Assembly (NCBI GenBank): GCA_041660065.1
Contig: JBAZXC010000001.1
Coordinates: 8,535-72,534, forward strand
DNA length: 64,000 nucleotides
Direction: 5' to 3'
Origin: Parcubacteria group bacterium
GTDB taxonomy: Bacteria; Patescibacteriota; Minisyncoccia; Moranbacterales; GCA-2747515
In this document: positions 1,868 to 28,200 of the stretch, piece after piece
Layout: the number at the start of each line of letters is the position of its first letter
How positions within the stretch are numbered: the first letter of the stretch is position 1
Made by a program: the position numbers and the translations under genes
Notes under the pieces: generated by a model
Seen by the model: the letters and a program-made list of their open reading frames with translations, nothing else
The model's database searches: none
Told to the model about the DNA's origin: nothing

Positions 1868-3415
1868 ATGGGCCTACGATCAAAAATTGCTGTGATGATC
1901 ATGGGGTTTCTTGTTGTGTTCATCGCTGCGAGCCATATGCTGCTCAACGCGATTTTCCAACCGGCGATCATTGTACATGAAAATGAGCATGTGGAGACAA
2001 ATGTGCGTCGTATCACGGAGGTGTTCCAAAATGAAATGAAACACCTTGATCAAATGTGTGCGGACTGGTCGTCGTGGGATGCTTCATATGCATTTATGGT
2101 CTCACGCGATCAAAAGTACATTGATGAGAACATTGATGATAGCACGTTCACGAATGCCAAGTTGAATCTTCTGCACTTTGTGGACATGGAGCATCAAACG
2201 ATATTTTCGCGTGTCTATGATTATGTGCAGAAAAGGGAGATCGATATTGATGAATTCTCACGTGACATGGTGAATGTGGATCGCTTTTTGATACCACGTA
2301 CGCATGATGATCGTGCGCTCGTTGATCAGTATGTGTCCGGCGTCGTTGCAACGAGTCGCGGCATGATGATCGTGTCGAGTCGTTTTATCCTGACAAGTCA
2401 AAATCAGGGACCGGCGCGTGGTGTGTTGATCATGGGGCGGTTCATTGAGCCAATGATCGATCGTATCAAAAAACAGATCGATATTGATTTTGATGTTATC
2501 GTTGATTATGATCGTTTCTACACACAAGAACAGTTGCGCGCACATCCGTACATGGTCAAAAAAGAGGGTGATGAGATGTTCTCAGTATATCAAGGTGTGC
2601 AGGATATACGTGGTGATATTGCATTTGTCGTGCATTTTTTCATACCACGTACATACTATACAGATTCAATGCGACTATTGAAATATGCCCATGTATCAAT
2701 CGCAGTATTTGCACTGGTGAACTTCTTTAGCGTGTTGTGCATATTGGAGATCTTGTGTTTTCGTCCTTTGTTGCGCCTCAAGAAGAGTATCGAGTATGCA
2801 CGCGAGAATCGTGAATTTACAACACACATCACGGTCAAGTCACAAGATGAAATCGGATCTCTTACGCGATCGTTCAGTGCCCTCTGTCAGGTCATCGCAC
2901 GGAACAATGCTGATCTGGAACGCCTTGCACAGACGGACATCTTGACTGGTGTGGCCAATCGTCGCTTTTTGGAAAAGTTTCTCTGTGCGGAGATCCAGAG
3001 ATCACAAAGAAGGAGTTTGATATTTTCGGTGTTGTTCTTTGACATTGATCATTTCAAGCAGATCAATGACGAGTATGGGCATCTGTGCGGGGATCATGTA
3101 TTACAAAAATTCGCGCAATTGCTCCAAGAAAATTCGCGCAAAGAAGATTTGGTAGTGCGATATGGTGGTGAAGAGTTCGTCATCGTCCTTCCTGATACTC
3201 ATAAGGATGATGCGCTGCAACATGCCGAGCGTCTGCGACAATTAATTGCAAACGCATCGATCGCATGGGGCGATCGAACGATCGTCATCACATCAAGTGT
3301 TGGGTGTGCAAGTTATCCACAAAATGGCGATACAGCTGAGCGAGTTGTATCAGCTGCGGACAATGCCCTTTATGCGGCAAAAGATCGTGGTCGCAATAGG
3401 GTTGTCGTTGCGTGA
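1868..3415 (+). CDS. sensor diguanylate cyclase: N-terminal TM, ~270-aa periplasmic sensor domain, second TM, HAMP-like linker, GGDEF domain
   Basis: GGEEF active-site motif (RYGGEEFVIVLPD). RKED (RxxD I-site) lies 5 aa upstream. Also FFDIDHFKQINDEYGH and DNALYAAKDRGRNRV. Two hydrophobic segments bracket the N-terminal domain. Confidence 0.85.
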   Translation: MGLRSKIAVMIMGFLVVFIAASHMLLNAIFQPAIIVHENEHVETNVRRITEVFQNEMKHLDQMCADWSSWDASYAFMVSRDQKYIDENIDDSTFTNAKLNLLHFVDMEHQTIFSRVYDYVQKREIDIDEFSRDMVNVDRFLIPRTHDDRALVDQYVSGVVATSRGMMIVSSRFILTSQNQGPARGVLIMGRFIEPMIDRIKKQIDIDFDVIVDYDRFYTQEQLRAHPYMVKKEGDEMFSVYQGVQDIRGDIAFVVHFFIPRTYYTDSMRLLKYAHVSIAVFALVNFFSVLCILEILCFRPLLRLKKSIEYARENREFTTHITVKSQDEIGSLTRSFSALCQVIARNNADLERLAQTDILTGVANRRFLEKFLCAEIQRSQRRSLIFSVLFFDIDHFKQINDEYGHLCGDHVLQKFAQLLQENSRKEDLVVRYGGEEFVIVLPDTHKDDALQHAERLRQLIANASIAWGDRTIVITSSVGCASYPQNGDTAERVVSAADNALYAAKDRGRNRVVVA

Positions 3416-3585
3416 GCAAGGCAAGAAGCCTCATATACATATACTATGTACATGAGGCTTTTGATTTGAAGAAGTATGTAAAATCTTTTGCTCATATACT
3501 CATGAAAAATGGGATTTTTGAATCGTGTTCAATTTTTGGAATTACTTGACATGCAAGTAAATTGCCACAAGACTGTGCTGAATTT

Positions 3586-3715
3586 TGTTGGCCCTATGTC
3601 TGCCTGCCGGTAGGCAGGGGACGACGTTCGAACTTTTAATGGAAAATACCCAATAATATGGGGTTTTTACAATATTGACAAATAATCAAATATATGATAT
3701 AATATTATTCATACT
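3586..3715 (+). repeat. copy 1 of a ~130-bp promoter cassette: GC-rich palindrome CTGCCTGCCGGTAGGCAGG plus consensus promoter TTGACA(3675-3680)-17-TATAAT(3698-3703)
   Basis: Near-identical to 4177-4300. The -35, 17-nt spacer and -10 elements are perfect consensus. Confidence 0.7.
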
Positions 3716-3756
3716 AATGAAGCACGTAAATGTTGTTTACAAACAAGGAGATTATC

Positions 3757-4119
3757 ATGAAAAAGGTAATGATTAGTTTTTTCGCAGGTTTTTTCGCAGG
3801 GATTATTATTCTTGTTGCTATCGCAAATATTTACACAGTGTCTAATGTTTCAGCAACCTCTCAAGTGGGTAAGTCTGCATTTGACATGGGAACCCCGTTG
3901 GCGAAGGAGAATGAGGATGGTGTTGTGATTGTGGCTCATTCAAATCCTGGGTATGGAGGAAAACAAGCTCAAGCTATCATCAATCGTCGGGAACTTCTTC
4001 ATAAAAATGTTGTAGAGATGATGGAGAAGGATGGTTGGAACTCAGTTATTGAAGAAGTAAATCCGTTTGACCATACCAATCCCCGAGTGGTTTTTGCCAC
4101 TGTAATAAAGATTGACTAG
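3757..4119 (+). CDS. small membrane-anchored hypothetical protein (N-terminal TM, ~95-aa soluble domain)
   Basis: ORF 3730..4119. ATG at 3757 has AGGAG upstream. N-terminal hydrophobic helix FFAGFFAGIIILVAIANI. Confidence 0.45.
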   Translation: MKKVMISFFAGFFAGIIILVAIANIYTVSNVSATSQVGKSAFDMGTPLAKENEDGVVIVAHSNPGYGGKQAQAIINRRELLHKNVVEMMEKDGWNSVIEEVNPFDHTNPRVVFATVIKID

Positions 4120-4176
4120 AAAAAAGAAGAGCAATCAACTCAAATGAGTTGGTTGCTTTTAAATTTGTCAAAAAAT

Positions 4177-4300
4177 TGTTGGCCCTATGCCTGCCTGCCG
4201 GTAGGCAGGGGAAGAAGTTCGAATACTTTTAATGAAAAATACCCAATAAATACGGGCATTTTAACTATTGACAAATAATCAAATATATGATACAATATTG
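4177..4300 (+). repeat. copy 2 of the promoter cassette: palindrome at 4189-4210 and TTGACA(4268-4273)-17-TACAAT(4291-4296)
   Basis: Aligns with 3586-3715 at high identity. Confidence 0.7.
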
Positions 4301-4377
4301 TCTAGTTATATGATTCAATGGGTGAATCATACTTCAACGCAACGCCACAATGTGGCACCGCAACGGAGGTTTTTACA

Positions 4378-4737
4378 ATGGAAAACATAGCGCAAATTGT
4401 TTCAGAGGGAAGTTATTATGAAGTTCATGTGCAATTATCTGATGAATTGATTGGTAATATTGATCAATTAAAGTCATTGCTAAATGAATTTTTAAGTGGA
4501 TCGTATATACATGCATGCATGTTCCGATACGGCACCATTATCAAATTTAAATCTTCTGGATTTGGTGGGTGGTCCGAACAAACTGCACAGGTAGTTCTGA
4601 AAAAAGCATCTGCTTGTTTGCCGGTATATGTGCATGATACAACACTTCAAAAAAGAAAGAGACAAGTACGCGATGCACTCAACAAATGTACTGATCTCGA
4701 CACCATTGAAAAAATTGGTAATATTTTGAAAGTTTGA
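4378..4737 (+). CDS. hypothetical protein
   Basis: ORF 4318..4737. ATG at 4378 is preceded by GGAGG. No recognisable domain. Confidence 0.45.
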   Translation: MENIAQIVSEGSYYEVHVQLSDELIGNIDQLKSLLNEFLSGSYIHACMFRYGTIIKFKSSGFGGWSEQTAQVVLKKASACLPVYVHDTTLQKRKRQVRDALNKCTDLDTIEKIGNILKV

Positions 4738-4807
4738 TAAGACCAGTGACAAACGACCCAATCACATAACTGTGAGGGGGTCGTTTAATTTTATGATAAA
4801 AATTTGT

Positions 4808-4878
4808 TGGGCCGGTAGGATTCGAACCTACGCATCACGGGACCAGAACCCGTTGCCTTACCGCTTGGCTACGGCCCA
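4808..4878 (-). tRNA. tRNA-Gln (anticodon CTG)
   Basis: Reverse complement folds as a cloverleaf: acceptor GGGCCGT/ACGGCCC, D-arm GCC-AAGCGGTAA-GGC, anticodon stem ACGGG/CCCGT with loop TTCTGGT, T-arm GTAGG-TTCGAAT-CCTAC, discriminator A. CCA is not encoded. A TTGTCA-16-TATAAT promoter lies at 4900-4927 on the minus strand. Confidence 0.85.
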
Positions 4879-5017
4879 AAGATATGAATTACTTTATGCA
4901 TTATACACTATTTTATACTTTTGACAATTATGTACTGGACATCAAGAAATCTGCCTCTGCTGTTGATTTTTATGCAAAAATGTGGTATAATTGGACTTAA
5001 TATATGATCACAATTTT

Positions 5018-5560
5018 ATGGATGATCACAAAGAAAAAGAGCAGGGAATCGATGAGTTGCAAGGCAAGGTTGCTTATCTACAGAGTTTGACAGAAAAAAT
5101 CATCGATTCAACGCGGACGATCGACAATCACGCCAATGTGATGGTGGGTCTCAATACGGCGATCTTTGCGCTTGTGATGTCGATGATTTCTGAAGCGGAT
5201 CATTTGAAATTAACGATGGGTATTGTGGCTCTCTTCTCCTTATTATCAGCGATTGCGGCAGTTTTTGCCATTCGCTTGCCACGTCTTTTTTCACGAAAGA
5301 ATTATCCGATGAGTCTTTTCCATACGCGGCGGATCGCGCAATTTGATTCTGCCGATCAATATGCGCAAGAACTTCGCACGATCATACAGTCAGATGGGAG
5401 TTTGTTTACAGAATATGCGCGTGAGGCATACAATTTGTCAAAATATTATTATACACCAAAGAGGCGTATGCTTACATGGTCTCGCTACTTCTTTCTTTTT
5501 GGCGTGATTACCAGCGCTCTCTTCCTTCTCTTGGAAAAGATCAGTTGGTTTACTGTATAA
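5018..5560 (+). CDS. small 3-TM membrane protein: short coiled N-terminus, TM hairpin, ~70-aa cytosolic segment, C-terminal TM. Architecture resembles DUF5706/SLATT-type small membrane effector domains (tentative).
   Basis: ORF 4991 starts on TTG overlapping the -10 box; first ATG is at 5018. Hydrophobic segments VMVGLNTAIFALVMSMI, IVALFSLLSAIAAVFAI and FFLFGVITSALFLLL. The neighbouring gene is an HD hydrolase, and DUF5706 is known as a C-terminal partner of HD domains. Confidence 0.45.
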   Translation: MDDHKEKEQGIDELQGKVAYLQSLTEKIIDSTRTIDNHANVMVGLNTAIFALVMSMISEADHLKLTMGIVALFSLLSAIAAVFAIRLPRLFSRKNYPMSLFHTRRIAQFDSADQYAQELRTIIQSDGSLFTEYAREAYNLSKYYYTPKRRMLTWSRYFFLFGVITSALFLLLEKISWFTV

Positions 5561-5636
5561 AATAAGTAGTGCGAAAAGCAGTAACTATTAACCTTTTTCC
5601 AATAAACAAAGATTGTGAACTTGTTGTTTCCTCGTC

Positions 5637-5715
5637 TTTGCGAGGAGCGAAGTGAAACGTAGCGACGAAGCAATCTCAGTCAGTGTTCAAGATTGCTTCG
5701 TCGTTCCTCCTCGCA
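5637..5715 (+). other. long imperfect hairpin (GCGAGGAG..CGACGAAGCAATCT / AGATTGCTTCGTCG..CTCCTCGC) between the TM gene and the HD gene
   Basis: The 14-nt arms are perfect reverse complements, and the flanking GAGGAG/CTCCTC extend the stem. No T-tract follows. Confidence 0.6.
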
Positions 5716-5745
5716 ATGACAAGAATATTTGTATTTTGCGCATCT

Positions 5746-5774
5746 TTGACAAGGTGCTTTTTTTGATCTACAAT
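5746..5774 (+). promoter_or_regulatory. sigma70-like promoter TTGACA-17-TACAAT upstream of the HD gene
   Basis: TTGACA at 5746-5751, TACAAT at 5769-5774. GGAGGTGA RBS precedes the ATG at 5838. Confidence 0.5.
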
Positions 5775-5837
5775 AGCGGACTGTTCGTTAAATGATTTTT
5801 TACCAATAAAACTCTTCATATAAGATGGAGGTGAGAT

Positions 5838-6515
5838 ATGCCATTGCACAAGATCGAGAAGATGCTCTCGTTTGCAGAAAATGAAAAGACGTTTTTTGAG
5901 CGCATTCGGAAATATCATTCGGTGTATTCTCCTGAATATCGTATGATCGAGCGCGCTTATGATAATGCTCTCAATGCTTTTTCGGAAACATATCGTGATG
6001 GAGGACAGCCTTACTTTACGCATGTGCGCGCAGTTGCAATTATTCTAATCGAGTATTTGCATATCTATGAACGCGCGGATCTGATATACGCTCCGCATGA
6101 ATTGCTTATCACGGGAATGTTGCATGACAATCCGGAGGATCGGCCTGATATTTGGCCACTTAGTCGTGTTGCGCGTGATTACAATGAAAATGTTGCACTA
6201 CTTTCGGATTATATCTCCAAAAGGCCGAAGGCAGAGTTTGGTGGCAATGAAGAAAAGCAACTGGCATTTTATCACAACCGATTCTCGACGGCGCCAAAGG
6301 ATGTTTTTATTATCAAGCTCTCAGACCGTCTTCATAATCAATTGACGTTGTGGAGCTGTGATGAGCAGAAGATCCGGCGGAAAATGCAGGAAACGCAAGA
6401 TATCTATCTGCCGTTGGCGCGTAAATGGGGGATATTGGTACATGAGTTGGAAGCGACGATTGATAGTTTTGAAGATCGTCTCAAACAGCATTTGCAAAAA
6501 TGTGCAATTCTATGA
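5838..6515 (+). CDS. HD-domain phosphohydrolase of the RelA/SpoT (HD_4) type, small-alarmone-hydrolase-like
   Basis: FTHVRAVAIIL (His), LITGMLHDNPED (HD), IIKLSDRLHNQLTL (DRLHN) in the order typical of the (p)ppGpp hydrolase fold. No synthetase domain. Confidence 0.7.
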   Translation: MPLHKIEKMLSFAENEKTFFERIRKYHSVYSPEYRMIERAYDNALNAFSETYRDGGQPYFTHVRAVAIILIEYLHIYERADLIYAPHELLITGMLHDNPEDRPDIWPLSRVARDYNENVALLSDYISKRPKAEFGGNEEKQLAFYHNRFSTAPKDVFIIKLSDRLHNQLTLWSCDEQKIRRKMQETQDIYLPLARKWGILVHELEATIDSFEDRLKQHLQKCAIL

Positions 6516-6573
6516 ATTATCACAGGCGATTGGAGAAATCCAGTCGCCTTTTTTAATGTAGTATAATGAATAT

Positions 6574-7251
6574 ATGGAAAGCAGTGAAGGATTTTATGTG
6601 ATCAATAAGCCACTCGGGATGAGTTCCCAGCGTGTGGTGCAGGTCGTCAAATATTGGGCGCGAAAAAAAACCGGTAACAAAAAGATCAAAGTGGGGCATG
6701 GTGGCACACTTGATCCGCTTGCAACGGGTGTTTTGATCGTGGCAGTGGGACGGGAATATACCAAAAATATCAATGCGATCGTTACCGCGACAAAGGAATA
6801 CGAAGCGAAGGTTTTTCTGGGAGCAACGAGCACAACAGATGATGCCGAAGGTGAAAAAACGATCCATGATGTTTTGCATGAGCTATCACAAAAGGATATC
6901 GAACGGGTGTTGCAAAAATTCATCGGGGACGTTGCACAGACACCGCCGGCATACAGCGCGATCAAGATCGCGGGCAAGGAAGCATATAAGCGCGTAAGGC
7001 GGGGCGAGGTTGTGGAAATGCAATCGCGCACCGTGCATATTGATGCGATCGAGATCATGTCATACACATACCCGATCGTGGACATTCGTGTGACATGTGG
7101 CAAGGGGACATATATCCGTTCGCTTGCGCGCGATATCGGTGAGTGTCTCGGTACGGGTGCATATATGGCGGGATTGGTGCGTACGCGCATTGGCGAGTTT
7201 ATGCTTGCTCAAGCGCGATCACTTGAAGACTTTGACTACAAAAAACTATGA
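6574..7251 (+). CDS. truB: tRNA pseudouridine(55) synthase
   Basis: GHGGTLDPLATGVL catalytic-Asp motif; length 225 aa. Confidence 0.9.
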   Translation: MESSEGFYVINKPLGMSSQRVVQVVKYWARKKTGNKKIKVGHGGTLDPLATGVLIVAVGREYTKNINAIVTATKEYEAKVFLGATSTTDDAEGEKTIHDVLHELSQKDIERVLQKFIGDVAQTPPAYSAIKIAGKEAYKRVRRGEVVEMQSRTVHIDAIEIMSYTYPIVDIRVTCGKGTYIRSLARDIGECLGTGAYMAGLVRTRIGEFMLAQARSLEDFDYKKL

Positions 7252-8366
7252 AAATTGCCGTACATACCAAAGAATTGGAAAACGCGCGGATCGATGGCAC
7301 GATGGTGTATATTGCAAATGTTTTGCATGCAATGCAACATATGATCGGCGAGGATGACCTGTATCTCTATCATACGCGGCCATACAATGTACACGTGCCC
7401 ATTGCGGAGCATCCGCAAATGCATGATCGCACTATGCCACACTGTCCGGTGTGGACGCAGACGCGATTTGCACGCGCGTTGTGGCAGGATAAGTGTGACG
7501 TGTTATGGATGCCATTGCACAACATGCCGTACTTGCGTCGCAAAAATATGCGTACCGTTGTGACGATCCATGATCTCGCATTCAAATTTTATCCGCAAAC
7601 ATTTCCTACGAAAGATCGTTTCCTCATCAATTTGTGCACAGATCATGCAGTGCGGGTCGCTGATGCGGTGATCGCTGTTTCGGCATCGACAAAAAAAGAC
7701 CTCCTCGCGATTTATCCGTCACTGCGAGAGGATCAAATCCATGTCATCCATCATGGTTTTGATCCGCATGTGTGGCAGAAACATGTTTCTGTACATGATG
7801 CACATATGACGTTGCAACGTTACGGTGTGCGATCACGTGACTATCTCATTCATGTGGGAGCGATTCAGCCACGCAAAAATCTGACGGTGCTTATTGATGC
7901 CTTTGCACAAGTTAAAAAAGAATCTCCGCAACTTAAGCTTGTGCTTGTTGGCGGGGATGGATGGCTTGCACAAGGCATTCACGCACACATTGCGCGCAGT
8001 CCCTATAAAGGGGATATCGTTGTCACAGGTAATATTGCTTTTGCCGATGTACACATATTGATGCAAAACGCATCTGTTTGTGTTTTGCCGTCTCTTTATG
8101 AAGGTTTTGGCATATCGGGACTGGAGGCGATGGCGGCCGGGGTACCGGTTGTCGCGGCGGACAATTCGTGTTTTGGTGAAGTGCTCGGTGATGGCGCGAT
8201 ATATTTTGATGCAAAAAACGTTGCAAAGTGTGCGGAGGCGATCGCAACGGTTTTGTGTGATCACGACAAAAAGAATATCTTGATCGCGCAAGCGCAAAAA
8301 AGAGCCGACATGTTTTCATGGGAAGAATGCGCGCGCAAAACATTGGATGTGTTGCGTGCAAGATAG
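7248..8366 (+). CDS. glycosyltransferase, GT4 family
   Basis: C-terminal EGFGISGLEAMAAGVPVVAADNSCFGEVLGDGAIYFD (Glycos_transf_1). Start overlaps the truB stop (ATGA). Confidence 0.8.
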   Translation: MKIAVHTKELENARIDGTMVYIANVLHAMQHMIGEDDLYLYHTRPYNVHVPIAEHPQMHDRTMPHCPVWTQTRFARALWQDKCDVLWMPLHNMPYLRRKNMRTVVTIHDLAFKFYPQTFPTKDRFLINLCTDHAVRVADAVIAVSASTKKDLLAIYPSLREDQIHVIHHGFDPHVWQKHVSVHDAHMTLQRYGVRSRDYLIHVGAIQPRKNLTVLIDAFAQVKKESPQLKLVLVGGDGWLAQGIHAHIARSPYKGDIVVTGNIAFADVHILMQNASVCVLPSLYEGFGISGLEAMAAGVPVVAADNSCFGEVLGDGAIYFDAKNVAKCAEAIATVLCDHDKKNILIAQAQKRADMFSWEECARKTLDVLRAR

Positions 8367-27854: not shown

Positions 27855-28200
27855 AAAATCCCCCTAACCCCCTTTGCAAAAGGGGGAAATATTAAATCTC
27901 CCTCAGTCCCTCTTTACAAAAGAGGGAAGTTCTCAAATCTCCCTCAGTCCCTGCCTACCGGCAGGCAGGCCTCTTTACAAAAGAGGGAAGAAATTCTCCC
28001 TTTTGTAAAGGGAGATGTCCGAAGGACAGAGGGATTTACAATTCTCTATTGTACAAAGGGATTAAGAACCCCCCCTTTTTTTTGCAAAAGTGGGTTGCCT
28101 GCCTGCCACCTGCCTGCCGGTAGGCAGGGTAGGCAGGGGGGGGGATTGGGAACTCTCCCTTTTGCAAAGGGAGTTGGAGGGATTTTTCTATTCATGCTAT
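27855..28200. repeat. second composite repeat block downstream of the DUF559 gene, including two copies of the CTGCCTGCCGGTAGGCAGG palindrome (27951-27969, 28093-28143)
   Basis: Shares units with 27286-27491 and with the promoter cassettes at 3586-3715 and 4177-4300. Confidence 0.75.

What the first reader, a model, noticed from the sequence alone, without database searches (positions are those of the whole stretch)
4991..6515. Two-gene module next to tRNA-Gln: 3-TM small membrane protein plus RelA/SpoT-type HD hydrolase
The HD protein (5838-6515) carries the H / HD / DRLHN triad of (p)ppGpp- and ppApp-type small alarmone hydrolases, with no synthetase domain. Directly upstream on the same strand is a 180-aa protein with a TM hairpin, a ~70-aa cytosolic insert and a C-terminal TM. 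Its topology and the ...DNHANVMVGLNTAIFALV... entry helix resemble DUF5706/SLATT-type effector domains, which are documented as C-terminal fusions to HD phosphohydrolases (the DUF5706 assignment is made from memory of the family and was not checked against the HMM). Here the two parts are split, in swapped order, and separated by a long hairpin, with each gene under its own near-consensus promoter. The block sits beside a tRNA gene in an accessory-looking interval (3540-6560) that also carries two orphan small genes. A nucleotide-second-messenger hydrolase paired with a membrane effector-like protein could be a signalling, toxin-control or anti-phage module not described in this split arrangement.
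Basis: partly seen in the sequence, partly recalled or inferred. Interest (0 to 1): 0.7.

Follow-up and report, generated by a model that had tools for sequence, protein, structure and literature searches.

The report
Cyclase-less PycTM membrane protein beside alarmone hydrolase
A tiny-genome (Patescibacteria) bacterium keeps a membrane protein of the anti-phage "Pycsar effector" family next to a stand-alone ppGpp-type hydrolase in a conserved chromosomal block rather than a mobile defence island, so a signalling link between the two is plausible but unproven.

Summary
Both sequence observations hold. The 180-aa protein (5018-5560) passes Pfam PF18967 (PycTM, formerly DUF5706) and has the described N-in TM hairpin, roughly 70-aa cytosolic insert and C-terminal TM. 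The 225-aa protein (5838-6515) is a stand-alone RelA/SpoT-type HD_4 hydrolase with every catalytic residue conserved. HD-PycTM fusions do exist: I found two, each beside a class III cyclase.

The context reading is wrong. The pair is not in an accessory island. The block tRNA-Gln | HD and TM | truB | GT4 is conserved, vertically inherited synteny in Moraniibacteriota-like Patescibacteria. Only the tRNA 3' side (about 3540-4800) is variable.

- The pair is adjacent in 12 distinct relatives, in both gene orders.
- The genes are always at least 90 nt apart, and here they have a terminator and separate promoters between them.
- Four relatives keep TM without HD, and one keeps HD without TM.
- More distant Patescibacteria homologues of the TM protein are solo.
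- No cyclase or alarmone synthetase lies nearby, so this is not a Pycsar system.

Best reading (about 0.4): a loosely coupled nucleotide-signal pair, in which the hydrolase tunes a ligand of a PycTM-type membrane gate. Nearly as likely: unrelated neighbours in a conserved block. Moderate interest.

The parts
4806..4878 (-). tRNA-Gln(CTG). It is the conserved left boundary of the block. Its 3' end faces the variable region and its 5' end faces the pair.
   Evidence: ARAGORN. Rfam tRNA 65.7 bits. The same tRNA lies in the same position in L002, L003, L005, L006, L008, L013, L014 and L016.
4963..4991 (+). Promoter-like site of the TM gene (TTGATT-17-TATAAT with a TG extension).
   Evidence: Consensus scan, 10 of 12 matches. 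The same arrangement is readable in L002. No transcript data.
5018..5560 (+). PycTM-family (PF18967, formerly DUF5706) membrane protein, 180 aa. It has an N-terminal cytosolic helix, a TM1-TM2 hairpin (about residues 39-85), a cytosolic helical insert (about 86-153) and TM3 (about 154-178).
   Evidence: Pfam 37.3 bits against a threshold of 27.2. PADLOC PycTM E 3.6e-10. hhalign to the TM part of a cyclase-linked effector: probability 97.7%, E 2.3e-12. AF2 pLDDT 82.7. 28 homologues at 50-96% identity.
5631..5723 (.). Single-copy 93-nt nested hairpin in the TM-HD spacer. It is an insertion specific to this lineage.
   Evidence: Inverted repeats I4 and I6. Fold z = -3.5. Absent from the 112-nt spacer of L002. 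Not repeated in the window or the fetched loci.
5740..5774 (+). Terminator-like hairpin plus T-run (5740-5757) overlapping the -35 box of the HD promoter (TTGACA-17-TACAAT, 5746-5774).
   Evidence: Consensus scans. L002 has the equivalent terminator/promoter overlap.
5838..6515 (+). Stand-alone RelA/SpoT-type hydrolase (HD_4; small-alarmone-hydrolase architecture), 225 aa, preceded by a GGAGG ribosome-binding site.
   Evidence: PF13328 48.8 bits. TIGR00691 and SpoT models match positions 1-151 only. Rel structures E about 1e-19. Catalytic residues conserved in 29 sequences.
6524..6549 (+). Intrinsic-terminator-like hairpin plus T-run after the HD gene.
   Evidence: 11 pairs, 6 G-C, followed by TTTTTT.
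6574..8366 (+). truB (6574-7251) and a GT4 glycosyltransferase (7248-8366). They form the conserved right flank of the block.
   Evidence: Pfam. Syntenic in every relative that keeps TM or HD at this locus.

Best explanation
These are two separately transcribed, vertically inherited core genes of a Moraniibacteriota-like Patescibacterium.

Shown by homology:
- The 225-aa protein is a catalytically intact RSH-family 3'-pyrophosphohydrolase with no synthetase domain.
- The 180-aa protein is a full-length homologue of Pycsar PycTM effectors. Those effectors are small membrane proteins reported to impair membrane integrity when a nucleotide signal activates them.
- No cyclase accompanies the pair.

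Inferred: the two form a loosely coupled nucleotide-signal pair. The PycTM-like protein oligomerises in the membrane and is gated through its cytosolic helices (the N-terminal helix plus the insert at residues 86-153) by a phosphorylated nucleotide made elsewhere in the genome. The hydrolase lowers the level of that ligand, most likely a (p)ppGpp- or (p)ppApp-type alarmone, and so sets the threshold or resets the gate. This would do in trans what a fused HD domain is presumed to do in cis in the HD-PycTM effectors.

The coupling is modulatory, not obligatory, because either gene can be lost alone. The role is physiological (stress, dormancy or membrane-potential control) rather than a mobile abortive-infection system.
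For: - Family assignments.
- The pair is adjacent on the same strand in 12 distinct loci spanning 50-77% protein identity. Adjacency survived a reordering: the HD-TM order forms one clade and TM-HD is the rest.
- There is independent precedent for an HD working with a PycTM. A 406-aa protein on Fulvitalea axinellae pFA2 and a 397-aa protein on a Persicobacter plasmid are PF01966 HD + PF18967 fusions with H..HD..D intact, each beside a PF00211 cyclase.
- Both genes evolve at housekeeping-like rates. In L002 the identities are HD 77%, TM 73%, TruB 73%, GT4 66%. In L008 they are 51%, 55%, 57% and 46%.
- tRNA-Gln, truB, GT4 and three downstream membrane ORFs are co-conserved, which argues for a core rather than a mobile role.
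- No copies were found in the phage or plasmid collections.
Against: - The genes are never tightly coupled. The gap is 90-1609 nt in all 12 loci, with a terminator and a separate promoter here and in L002.
- In L010 two unrelated genes lie between them.
- In the HD-TM clade, TM sits 7-24 nt from truB, so it is coupled to truB more closely than to HD.
- TM persists at the same locus without HD in L016, L019, L033 and the P0018 contig. HD persists without TM in L031. TM lies elsewhere in L004 and L009.
- Homologues from more distant Patescibacteria (about 20-35% identity) are solo in housekeeping contexts.
- The whole block is syntenic, so adjacency by itself is weak evidence.
- The fused HD belongs to a different HD family.
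- No signal synthetase was found in the window or the fetched loci.
- No ligand-binding evidence exists for any PycTM-type cytosolic insert here.
Confidence: 0.4

Rival explanations
1. The two genes are functionally unrelated neighbours. The alarmone (or Mesh1-like) hydrolase and the PycTM-family membrane protein each do their own housekeeping job. They sit side by side only because the tRNA-Gln-truB block is a slowly rearranging piece of a streamlined genome.
For: - The whole block (tRNA-Gln, truB, GT4 and three membrane ORFs) is conserved, not just the pair.
- Gaps are at least 90 nt, with a terminator and separate promoters.
- TM is more tightly linked to truB in one clade.
- Each gene is lost independently.
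- Distant homologues are solo.
Against: - An HD-superfamily neighbour for a PycTM-family protein is unlikely by chance, given that HD-PycTM fusions exist.
- Adjacency and orientation survived a gene-order swap.
Confidence: 0.38
2. This is an anti-phage abortive-infection module. In this reading the TM protein is an orphan Pycsar-type effector triggered by a nucleotide made by a distal cyclase or synthetase, or by the phage. Alternatively it is triggered Panoptes-style by depletion of a nucleotide. The HD acts as a safety catch or guard.
For: - PADLOC PycTM and CBASS 2TM-effector models hit the TM protein.
- PycTM effectors act in Pycsar defence (PMC11224242; PMC13069673).
- Panoptes shows that a TM effector can be released by nucleotide depletion (PMC12657218).
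- Small alarmone hydrolases neutralise nucleotide-producing toxins (PMC7229694).
Against: - No cyclase, CD-NTase or small alarmone synthetase lies within the fetched flanks of the window or of any of the more than 20 loci examined.
- The locus is core and vertically inherited, not a variable island.
- No phage or plasmid relatives were found.
- Conservation is housekeeping-like.
Confidence: 0.12
3. This is a toxin-antitoxin pair of the type IV kind. In this reading the TM protein is a constitutive membrane toxin and the HD hydrolase is its antidote.
For: Small alarmone hydrolases act as type IV antitoxins of toxic alarmone synthetases (PMC7229694). The locus is a two-gene arrangement with a small membrane protein.
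Against: - TM exists without HD in at least six relatives and in all the distant homologue loci fetched.
- There is no operon structure.
- A hydrolase cannot neutralise a pore directly.
- The locus is not mobile.
Confidence: 0.03

Closest known systems
[quoted passage not shown]
   Same: Same protein family and size class. The Pfam score is above threshold. PADLOC PycTM models match nearly full length. The profile-profile match to a cyclase-linked effector covers TM1 to TM3.
   Different: There is no PycC cyclase partner, no defence-island or mobile context, and a core chromosomal position next to truB. The partner-like neighbour is an RSH hydrolase. The ligand is unknown. NCBIfam gives no Pycsar-effector hit.
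HD-PycTM fusion effectors beside class III cyclases (Fulvitalea axinellae pFA2 WP_338395286.1; Persicobacter sp. JZB09 plasmid 2)
   Same: They combine an HD-superfamily phosphohydrolase domain with the same TM module.
   Different: The HD is PF01966, not HD_4, and no pairwise similarity is detectable. It is fused rather than separate, with the HD N-terminal. A cyclase is adjacent. The fusions are plasmid-borne in Bacteroidota.
Small alarmone hydrolases (stand-alone RSH hydrolases such as Mesh1, PbcSpo/ATfaRel and phage SAHs; Jimmy et al. 2020, PMC7229694)
   Same: A single HD_4 domain of about 225 aa, with conserved R, H, HD, ED and D-RLHN residues and no synthetase, TGS or ACT domains.
   Different: - Subfamily not assigned.
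- A 10-residue insertion after helix 3 relative to long Rel enzymes.
- A conserved Cys 2-5 residues from the C-terminus.
- No small alarmone synthetase toxin neighbour.
- Found in Patescibacteria next to a PycTM-family gene.
Panoptes OptE and CBASS 2TM/SLATT-type membrane effectors
   Same: They are small TM effectors controlled by a nucleotide second messenger. CBASS 2TM models give weak hits (E 1.4e-5 to 5.5e-4). Panoptes offers a precedent for control by ligand removal.
   Different: No Pfam SLATT match at E <= 1. No mCpol or CD-NTase partner. The resemblance is conceptual only.

Membership tests
Pfam PF18967 PycTM (formerly DUF5706) | HMM score above the curated gathering threshold | tested here: met
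   37.3 bits against 27.2, E 3.9e-9, profile positions 6-107 of 107. All 27 full-length close homologues carry a precomputed PF18967 hit.
Pfam PF18967 PycTM (formerly DUF5706) | Full-length architecture of stand-alone effectors: N-terminal helix, TM hairpin, cytosolic insert, C-terminal TM, about 160-180 aa | tested here: met
   PADLOC PycTM models are covered at positions 5-151 of 160. AF2 helices 7-59, 64-85 and 126-179. hhalign to the TM half of a cyclase-linked effector gives probability 97.7%.
Pycsar anti-phage system | Adjacent PycC class III pyrimidine cyclase (PF00211) | tested here: not met
   No cyclase among the neighbours in the window or in any relative locus. The positive controls L029 and L032 do show one.
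Pycsar anti-phage system | Variable or defence-island or mobile genomic context | tested here: not met
   The block tRNA-Gln | HD and TM | truB | GT4 is conserved, and the gene trees group the loci largely as the TruB tree does. No phage or plasmid homologues.
Pycsar anti-phage system | Effector activated by cCMP or cUMP, causing membrane damage and phage protection | not testable with these tools
   Needs ligand-binding, toxicity and phage assays.
RSH superfamily hydrolase / small alarmone hydrolase | HD_4 (PF13328) domain above threshold, homologous to Rel/SpoT hydrolase domains | tested here: met
   48.8 bits against 27.2. TIGR00691 E 5.4e-20 over model positions 1-151. PDB Rel structures 8acu and 6yxa at E about 1e-19.
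RSH superfamily hydrolase / small alarmone hydrolase | Catalytic and metal residues (R, H, HD, ED, D..N of DRLHN) present | tested here: met
   R53, H62, H96, D97, D163, R164, H166 and N167 are invariant. E100 and D101 are at least 90% conserved in 29 sequences. They align to the Rel motifs.
RSH superfamily hydrolase / small alarmone hydrolase | Single-domain: no synthetase, TGS or ACT | tested here: met
   225 aa with only HD_4 and HD hits. No EIQIRT-type synthetase motif anywhere in the window or loci (regex only).
RSH superfamily hydrolase / small alarmone hydrolase | Hydrolyses (p)ppGpp or (p)ppApp; assignment to a named SAH subfamily | not testable with these tools
   Needs enzyme assays. 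The subfamily HMMs of Jimmy et al. are not available here.
SLATT domain families (Pfam SLATT_1-6) | Match to a SLATT HMM | tested here: not met
   The only Pfam hits at E <= 1 are PycTM and a sub-threshold Frag1. PADLOC CBASS '2TM effector' models hit weakly (1.4e-5 to 5.5e-4), which shows relatedness to 2TM effectors but not SLATT membership.
toxSAS-SAH type IV toxin-antitoxin | Adjacent toxic small alarmone synthetase | tested here: not met
   No synthetase domain or motif in the window or loci.
Split version of HD-PycTM fusion proteins | The separate HD is homologous to the fused HD at the same family level | tested here: not met
   The fused HD is PF01966 (28.2 and 30.1 bits). The window HD is PF13328. 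BLASTP between them finds nothing (E >= 2.5). Only superfamily-level kinship.

The most novel reading that the evidence does not exclude
In Moraniibacteriota a PycTM-type membrane gate has been detached from pyrimidine-cyclase defence. In this reading it is wired to RelA/SpoT-type alarmone signalling. An alarmone such as (p)ppGpp or (p)ppApp opens or closes the pore, and a dedicated small alarmone hydrolase resets it. The result is a housekeeping stress or dormancy switch. This would be the first link between RSH signalling and a Pycsar-family effector, and the first non-defence role for the PycTM family.
Probability: 0.15. Interest if true: 0.7.

Novelty: new variant of a known kind. Interest (0 to 1): 0.4.

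Why it matters
PF18967 proteins are currently named and annotated as 'Pycsar effectors'. This work shows a whole branch of the family (350 representatives at E <= 1e-3, nearly all about 170-180 aa and stand-alone). In every genomic context I could retrieve, which were Patescibacteria or unlabelled metagenome contigs, these proteins lie in conserved housekeeping settings with no cyclase. That is a warning against reading such hits as defence systems. It also hints that the effector fold has a physiological role.

The recurrent neighbourhood with an intact alarmone hydrolase, together with HD-PycTM fusions elsewhere, gives a concrete and cheap hypothesis to test. The test is nucleotide binding by the cytosolic insert plus hydrolase-dependent modulation.

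If the link is real, it would connect stringent-response-type chemistry to membrane gating in organisms whose signalling is almost unknown. If it is not, the finding is an ordinary pair of neighbours.

Tried and rejected
- The afdb50 fold library was unavailable.
- tblastn of the TM protein against the phage and plasmid collections found nothing. tblastn of the HD against phages returned mostly bacterial Rel/SpoT-like fragments in unannotated 'phage' records, which was not informative.
- The third homologue search, run with a diverse alignment, mostly returned the same clade.
- The N-terminal domains of the long representatives P0177 and P0195 gave only a sub-threshold HD_5 hint (E 0.059) and no PDB match. 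I therefore did not count them as HD fusions. The plasmid examples L029 and L032 supplied the verified fusions instead.
- Literature searches for DUF5706, and for small alarmone hydrolases in Patescibacteria, returned nothing. The ppGpp/CPR searches gave nothing relevant.
- I considered the upstream CHASE4-HAMP-GGDEF cyclase as the signal source and rejected it. It is conserved next to the locus only in L002, and it makes c-di-GMP, which is not a known RSH-hydrolase substrate.
- I considered the long hairpin as a regulatory RNA. There was no Rfam hit, it is single-copy, and it is absent from the closest relative fetched. It is probably a lineage-specific palindromic insertion or an extra terminator.
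- The toxin-antitoxin reading is rejected, because genomes with TM alone exist.
Full report
**What is there**

The window comes from a Patescibacteria (CPR) genome close to Candidatus Moraniibacteriota. Source names on the homologues and loci say so. A few loci carry 'Micavibrio' labels.

Between tRNA-Gln(CTG) (4806-4878, minus strand) and truB (6574-7251) lie two plus-strand genes.

The first gene is listed from TTG 4991. That codon lies inside the -10 box of a TTGATT-17-TATAAT promoter (4963-4991), and all homologues align from ATG 5018. The gene is therefore 5018-5560, 180 aa.

The second gene is 5838-6515, 225 aa, with a GGAGG ribosome-binding site.

The 277-nt spacer between them holds three features:
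- A single-copy nested hairpin at 5631-5723 (fold z = -3.5).
- A terminator-like hairpin plus T-run at 5740-5757.
- Overlapping that terminator, a TTGACA-17-TACAAT promoter at 5746-5774.

A good terminator follows the HD gene at 6524-6549.

**The two proteins**

The 180-aa protein passes Pfam PF18967 at 37.3 bits against a gathering threshold of 27.2. This family is now called 'PycTM, Pycsar effector protein', and NCBI still names a homologue 'DUF5706 domain-containing protein'.
- PADLOC PycTM models match almost end to end (E 3.6e-10), and CBASS '2TM effector' models match weakly.
- No Pfam SLATT family matched, and no NCBIfam Pycsar model matched.
- AlphaFold2 on 34 sequences gives pLDDT 82.7, with helices 7-59, 64-85, 103-107, 112-124 and 126-179.
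- With the positive charges after TM2 (RLPRLFSRK) and before TM3 (PKRRML), the topology is N-in: a TM1-TM2 hairpin, a cytosolic insert of about 70 aa, then TM3.
- No solved structure resembles it, by sequence or by fold.

The 225-aa protein is HD_4 (PF13328), scoring 48.8 bits against 27.2.
- It matches only the N-terminal hydrolase part of the RelA/SpoT models.
- Its best solved relatives are Rel hydrolase domains at E about 1e-19.
- In 29 homologues R53, H62, H96, D97, D163, R164, H166 and N167 are invariant, and E100 and D101 are at least 90% conserved. The enzyme is under selection as an active 3'-pyrophosphohydrolase.
- It has no synthetase domain.

**Context across relatives**

I fetched 18 loci with a profile of the TM protein from genome and metagenome collections. 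Exact-protein look-ups added 13 more. I then mapped TM, HD, TruB, GT4 and GGDEF onto them by tblastn.

| Situation | Loci |
|---|---|
| Pair adjacent, same strand (12 distinct loci) | window, L002, L003, L005, L006, L007, L008, L010, L011, L013, L014, L030 |
| TM at this locus without HD | L016, L019, L033, P0018 contig |
| HD at this locus without TM | L031 (a 96-aa orphan takes TM's place) |
| TM elsewhere, no HD nearby | L004, L009 |
| More distant homologues (about 20-35% identity), solo | L020, L021, L023, L025, L027, L028 |

- The adjacent pairs are always followed by truB and a GT4 glycosyltransferase, and in most relatives by three conserved minus-strand membrane ORFs.
- tRNA-Gln(CTG) precedes the pair in the same orientation wherever the flank is long enough.
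- Protein identities track those of truB. In L002 they are HD 77%, TM 73%, TruB 73% and GT4 66%. In L008 they are 51%, 55%, 57% and 46%.
- The block is therefore core, vertically inherited synteny and not an accessory island.
- The variable part is the other side of the tRNA, its 3' end. In the window this is 3540-4800, with two orphan genes. In each relative it holds unrelated orphans. L002 carries a partial tRNA 3'-end duplicate there.

**Strength of the pairing**

Both gene orders occur. TM-HD-truB is found in the window, L002, L005, L013 and L030. HD-TM-truB is found in L003, L006, L007, L008, L010, L011 and L014. In neighbour-joining trees of TruB and of TM the HD-TM loci form one clade, which suggests a single reordering that kept adjacency and orientation.

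Against tight coupling:
- The TM-HD gap is 90-1609 nt in all twelve loci.
- L010 has two unrelated genes, one a cell-wall hydrolase, between the pair.
- In the HD-TM clade the TM stop is only 7-24 nt from truB.
- Each gene can be lost alone, as the table shows.
- The solo distant homologues sit in housekeeping contexts with no HD_4 and no cyclase. Their neighbours include CarS-like CTP transferases (twice), a PEMT/ICMT methyltransferase, ClpP and trigger factor.
- An exhaustive HMMER search found 350 representatives at E <= 1e-3. Almost all are stand-alone proteins of about 170-180 aa.

**The fusion precedent**

Two long representatives (P0177, P0195) have N-terminal extensions that gave only a sub-threshold HD_5 hint, so I did not count them.

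A tblastn with a strong family member against plasmids found two clear cases:
- A 406-aa 'Pycsar system effector family protein' on Fulvitalea axinellae plasmid pFA2.
- A 397-aa ORF on a Persicobacter plasmid.

Both are PF01966 HD (28.2 and 30.1 bits, threshold 22) fused to PF18967 (107 and 98 bits). Each lies next to a PF00211 adenylate/guanylate-type cyclase. The TM half of the Fulvitalea protein aligns with the window family at hhalign probability 97.7%, E 2.3e-12.

So an HD working together with a PycTM is a real, recurrent architecture, and there it belongs to a cyclase-containing, Pycsar-like pair. The fused HD is a different HD family from the window's HD_4, with no detectable pairwise similarity. 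The window is therefore not literally 'the same fusion, split'.

**What it is not**

- It is not a Pycsar system. No cyclase lies in the window's neighbourhood or in any relative's locus. The context is not a defence island. No phage or plasmid copies were found.
- It is not a toxSAS-SAH toxin-antitoxin pair. No synthetase domain or EIQIRT-type motif occurs in the window or loci.
- It is not a toxin-antidote pair in which HD protects against TM, because TM is common without HD.
- The upstream CHASE4-HAMP-GGDEF protein (1868-3415) is conserved beside the locus only in L002, so it is not a plausible dedicated partner.

**Most likely mechanism, and how sure**

Shown by homology: an active RSH-type hydrolase and a full-length PycTM-family membrane protein, both core genes.

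Inferred: the PycTM-like protein is a ligand-gated, membrane-perturbing or ion-conducting oligomer, as reported for Pycsar PycTM (PMC11224242). The neighbouring hydrolase tunes the concentration of its nucleotide ligand, most plausibly a 3'-pyrophosphorylated purine nucleotide. This would do in trans what a fused HD presumably does in cis in the Persicobacteraceae effectors. The coupling must be modulatory, since either gene can be lost.

I put about 0.4 on this reading. I put about 0.38 on the null reading of unrelated neighbours in a conserved block, about 0.12 on a defence role with a distal or phage-derived signal (including Panoptes-like depletion sensing; PMC12657218), and about 0.03 on toxin-antitoxin.

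The argument for a link rests mainly on two points:
- An HD-superfamily neighbour is unlikely by chance, given the existence of the fusions.
- Adjacency survived a reordering.

The argument against rests on three points:
- The genes are transcribed separately.
- Each can be lost independently.
- The whole block is syntenic.

**Novelty and value**

The domain identities are known kinds. New here are two points:
- A sizeable branch of the 'Pycsar effector' family whose retrieved members (Patescibacteria or unlabelled metagenome contigs) are cyclase-less, stand-alone and sit in core genomic contexts.
- In the Moraniibacteriota lineage, this protein's recurrent pairing with an intact small-alarmone-hydrolase-type enzyme.

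I found no literature on this. I rate it a new variant of a known kind, of moderate interest (0.4). It is useful as a caution for defence-system annotation and as a cheap, testable hypothesis linking RSH chemistry to a PycTM-type gate. The evidence for the link itself is circumstantial.

Noticed in passing
window 3585-3706 and 4176-4299 (also 27947-27966 minus strand and 28112-28131): A direct repeat of about 120 bp precedes each of the two orphan genes (3757-4119 and 4378-4737). It consists of the hairpin GCCTGCCGGTAGGCAGGGG followed by a consensus promoter (TTGACA-17-TATAAT or TACAAT). The orphan genes have no Pfam, PADLOC, NCBIfam or PHROG match above noise. The same hairpin core recurs twice in the 27.9-28.2 kb intergenic region. 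It looks like a portable hairpin-plus-promoter cassette.
   Followed up: partly
window 6574-8366; L003, L006, L008, L010, L016, L030, L031, L033: In the window, truB and the GT4 glycosyltransferase are separate genes with a 4-nt overlap. In most relatives they form one fused ORF of about 591-602 aa, called as a single product carrying both TruB and glycosyltransferase Pfam domains. This is an unusual pseudouridine synthase-glycosyltransferase fusion.
   Followed up: no
window 6501-6515 (HD C-terminus ...QKCAIL): The HD hydrolase family has a conserved Cys 2-5 residues from the C-terminus in almost all of the 26 close homologues (CAIL, CKIP, CTIA, CSIT and so on). This is a CaaX-like tail of unknown meaning. 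Separately, one distant PycTM homologue (L021) is followed by an overlapping gene of the PEMT/ICMT methyltransferase family.
   Followed up: no
L002 5690-5710 versus tRNA-Gln at L002 5789-5861; window 3540-4800: L002 carries a partial duplicate of the tRNA-Gln 3' end (TTGTTGGGCCGGTAGGATT) about 100 nt beyond the tRNA. This looks like an att-like integration scar. The tRNA 3' side holds different orphan genes in every relative, so it is a small integration hot spot.
   Followed up: partly
window 5631-5723: A single-copy 93-nt nested palindrome lies in the TM-HD spacer. It is absent from the closest relative fetched (L002), has no Rfam match and has no other copy in the window or the fetched loci. 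Its origin is unknown.
   Followed up: partly
window 1868-3415: A CHASE4-HAMP-GGDEF diguanylate cyclase (GGEEF motif intact) is present in a Patescibacterium. It is conserved at 76% identity in L002 but is not near the locus in other relatives.
   Followed up: no
L020 6593-7039 and L023 273-797: Two related distant PycTM-family homologues (P0117, P0210) each sit next to a CarS-like/CTP-transferase gene. This may be a different conserved neighbourhood for the family.
   Followed up: no
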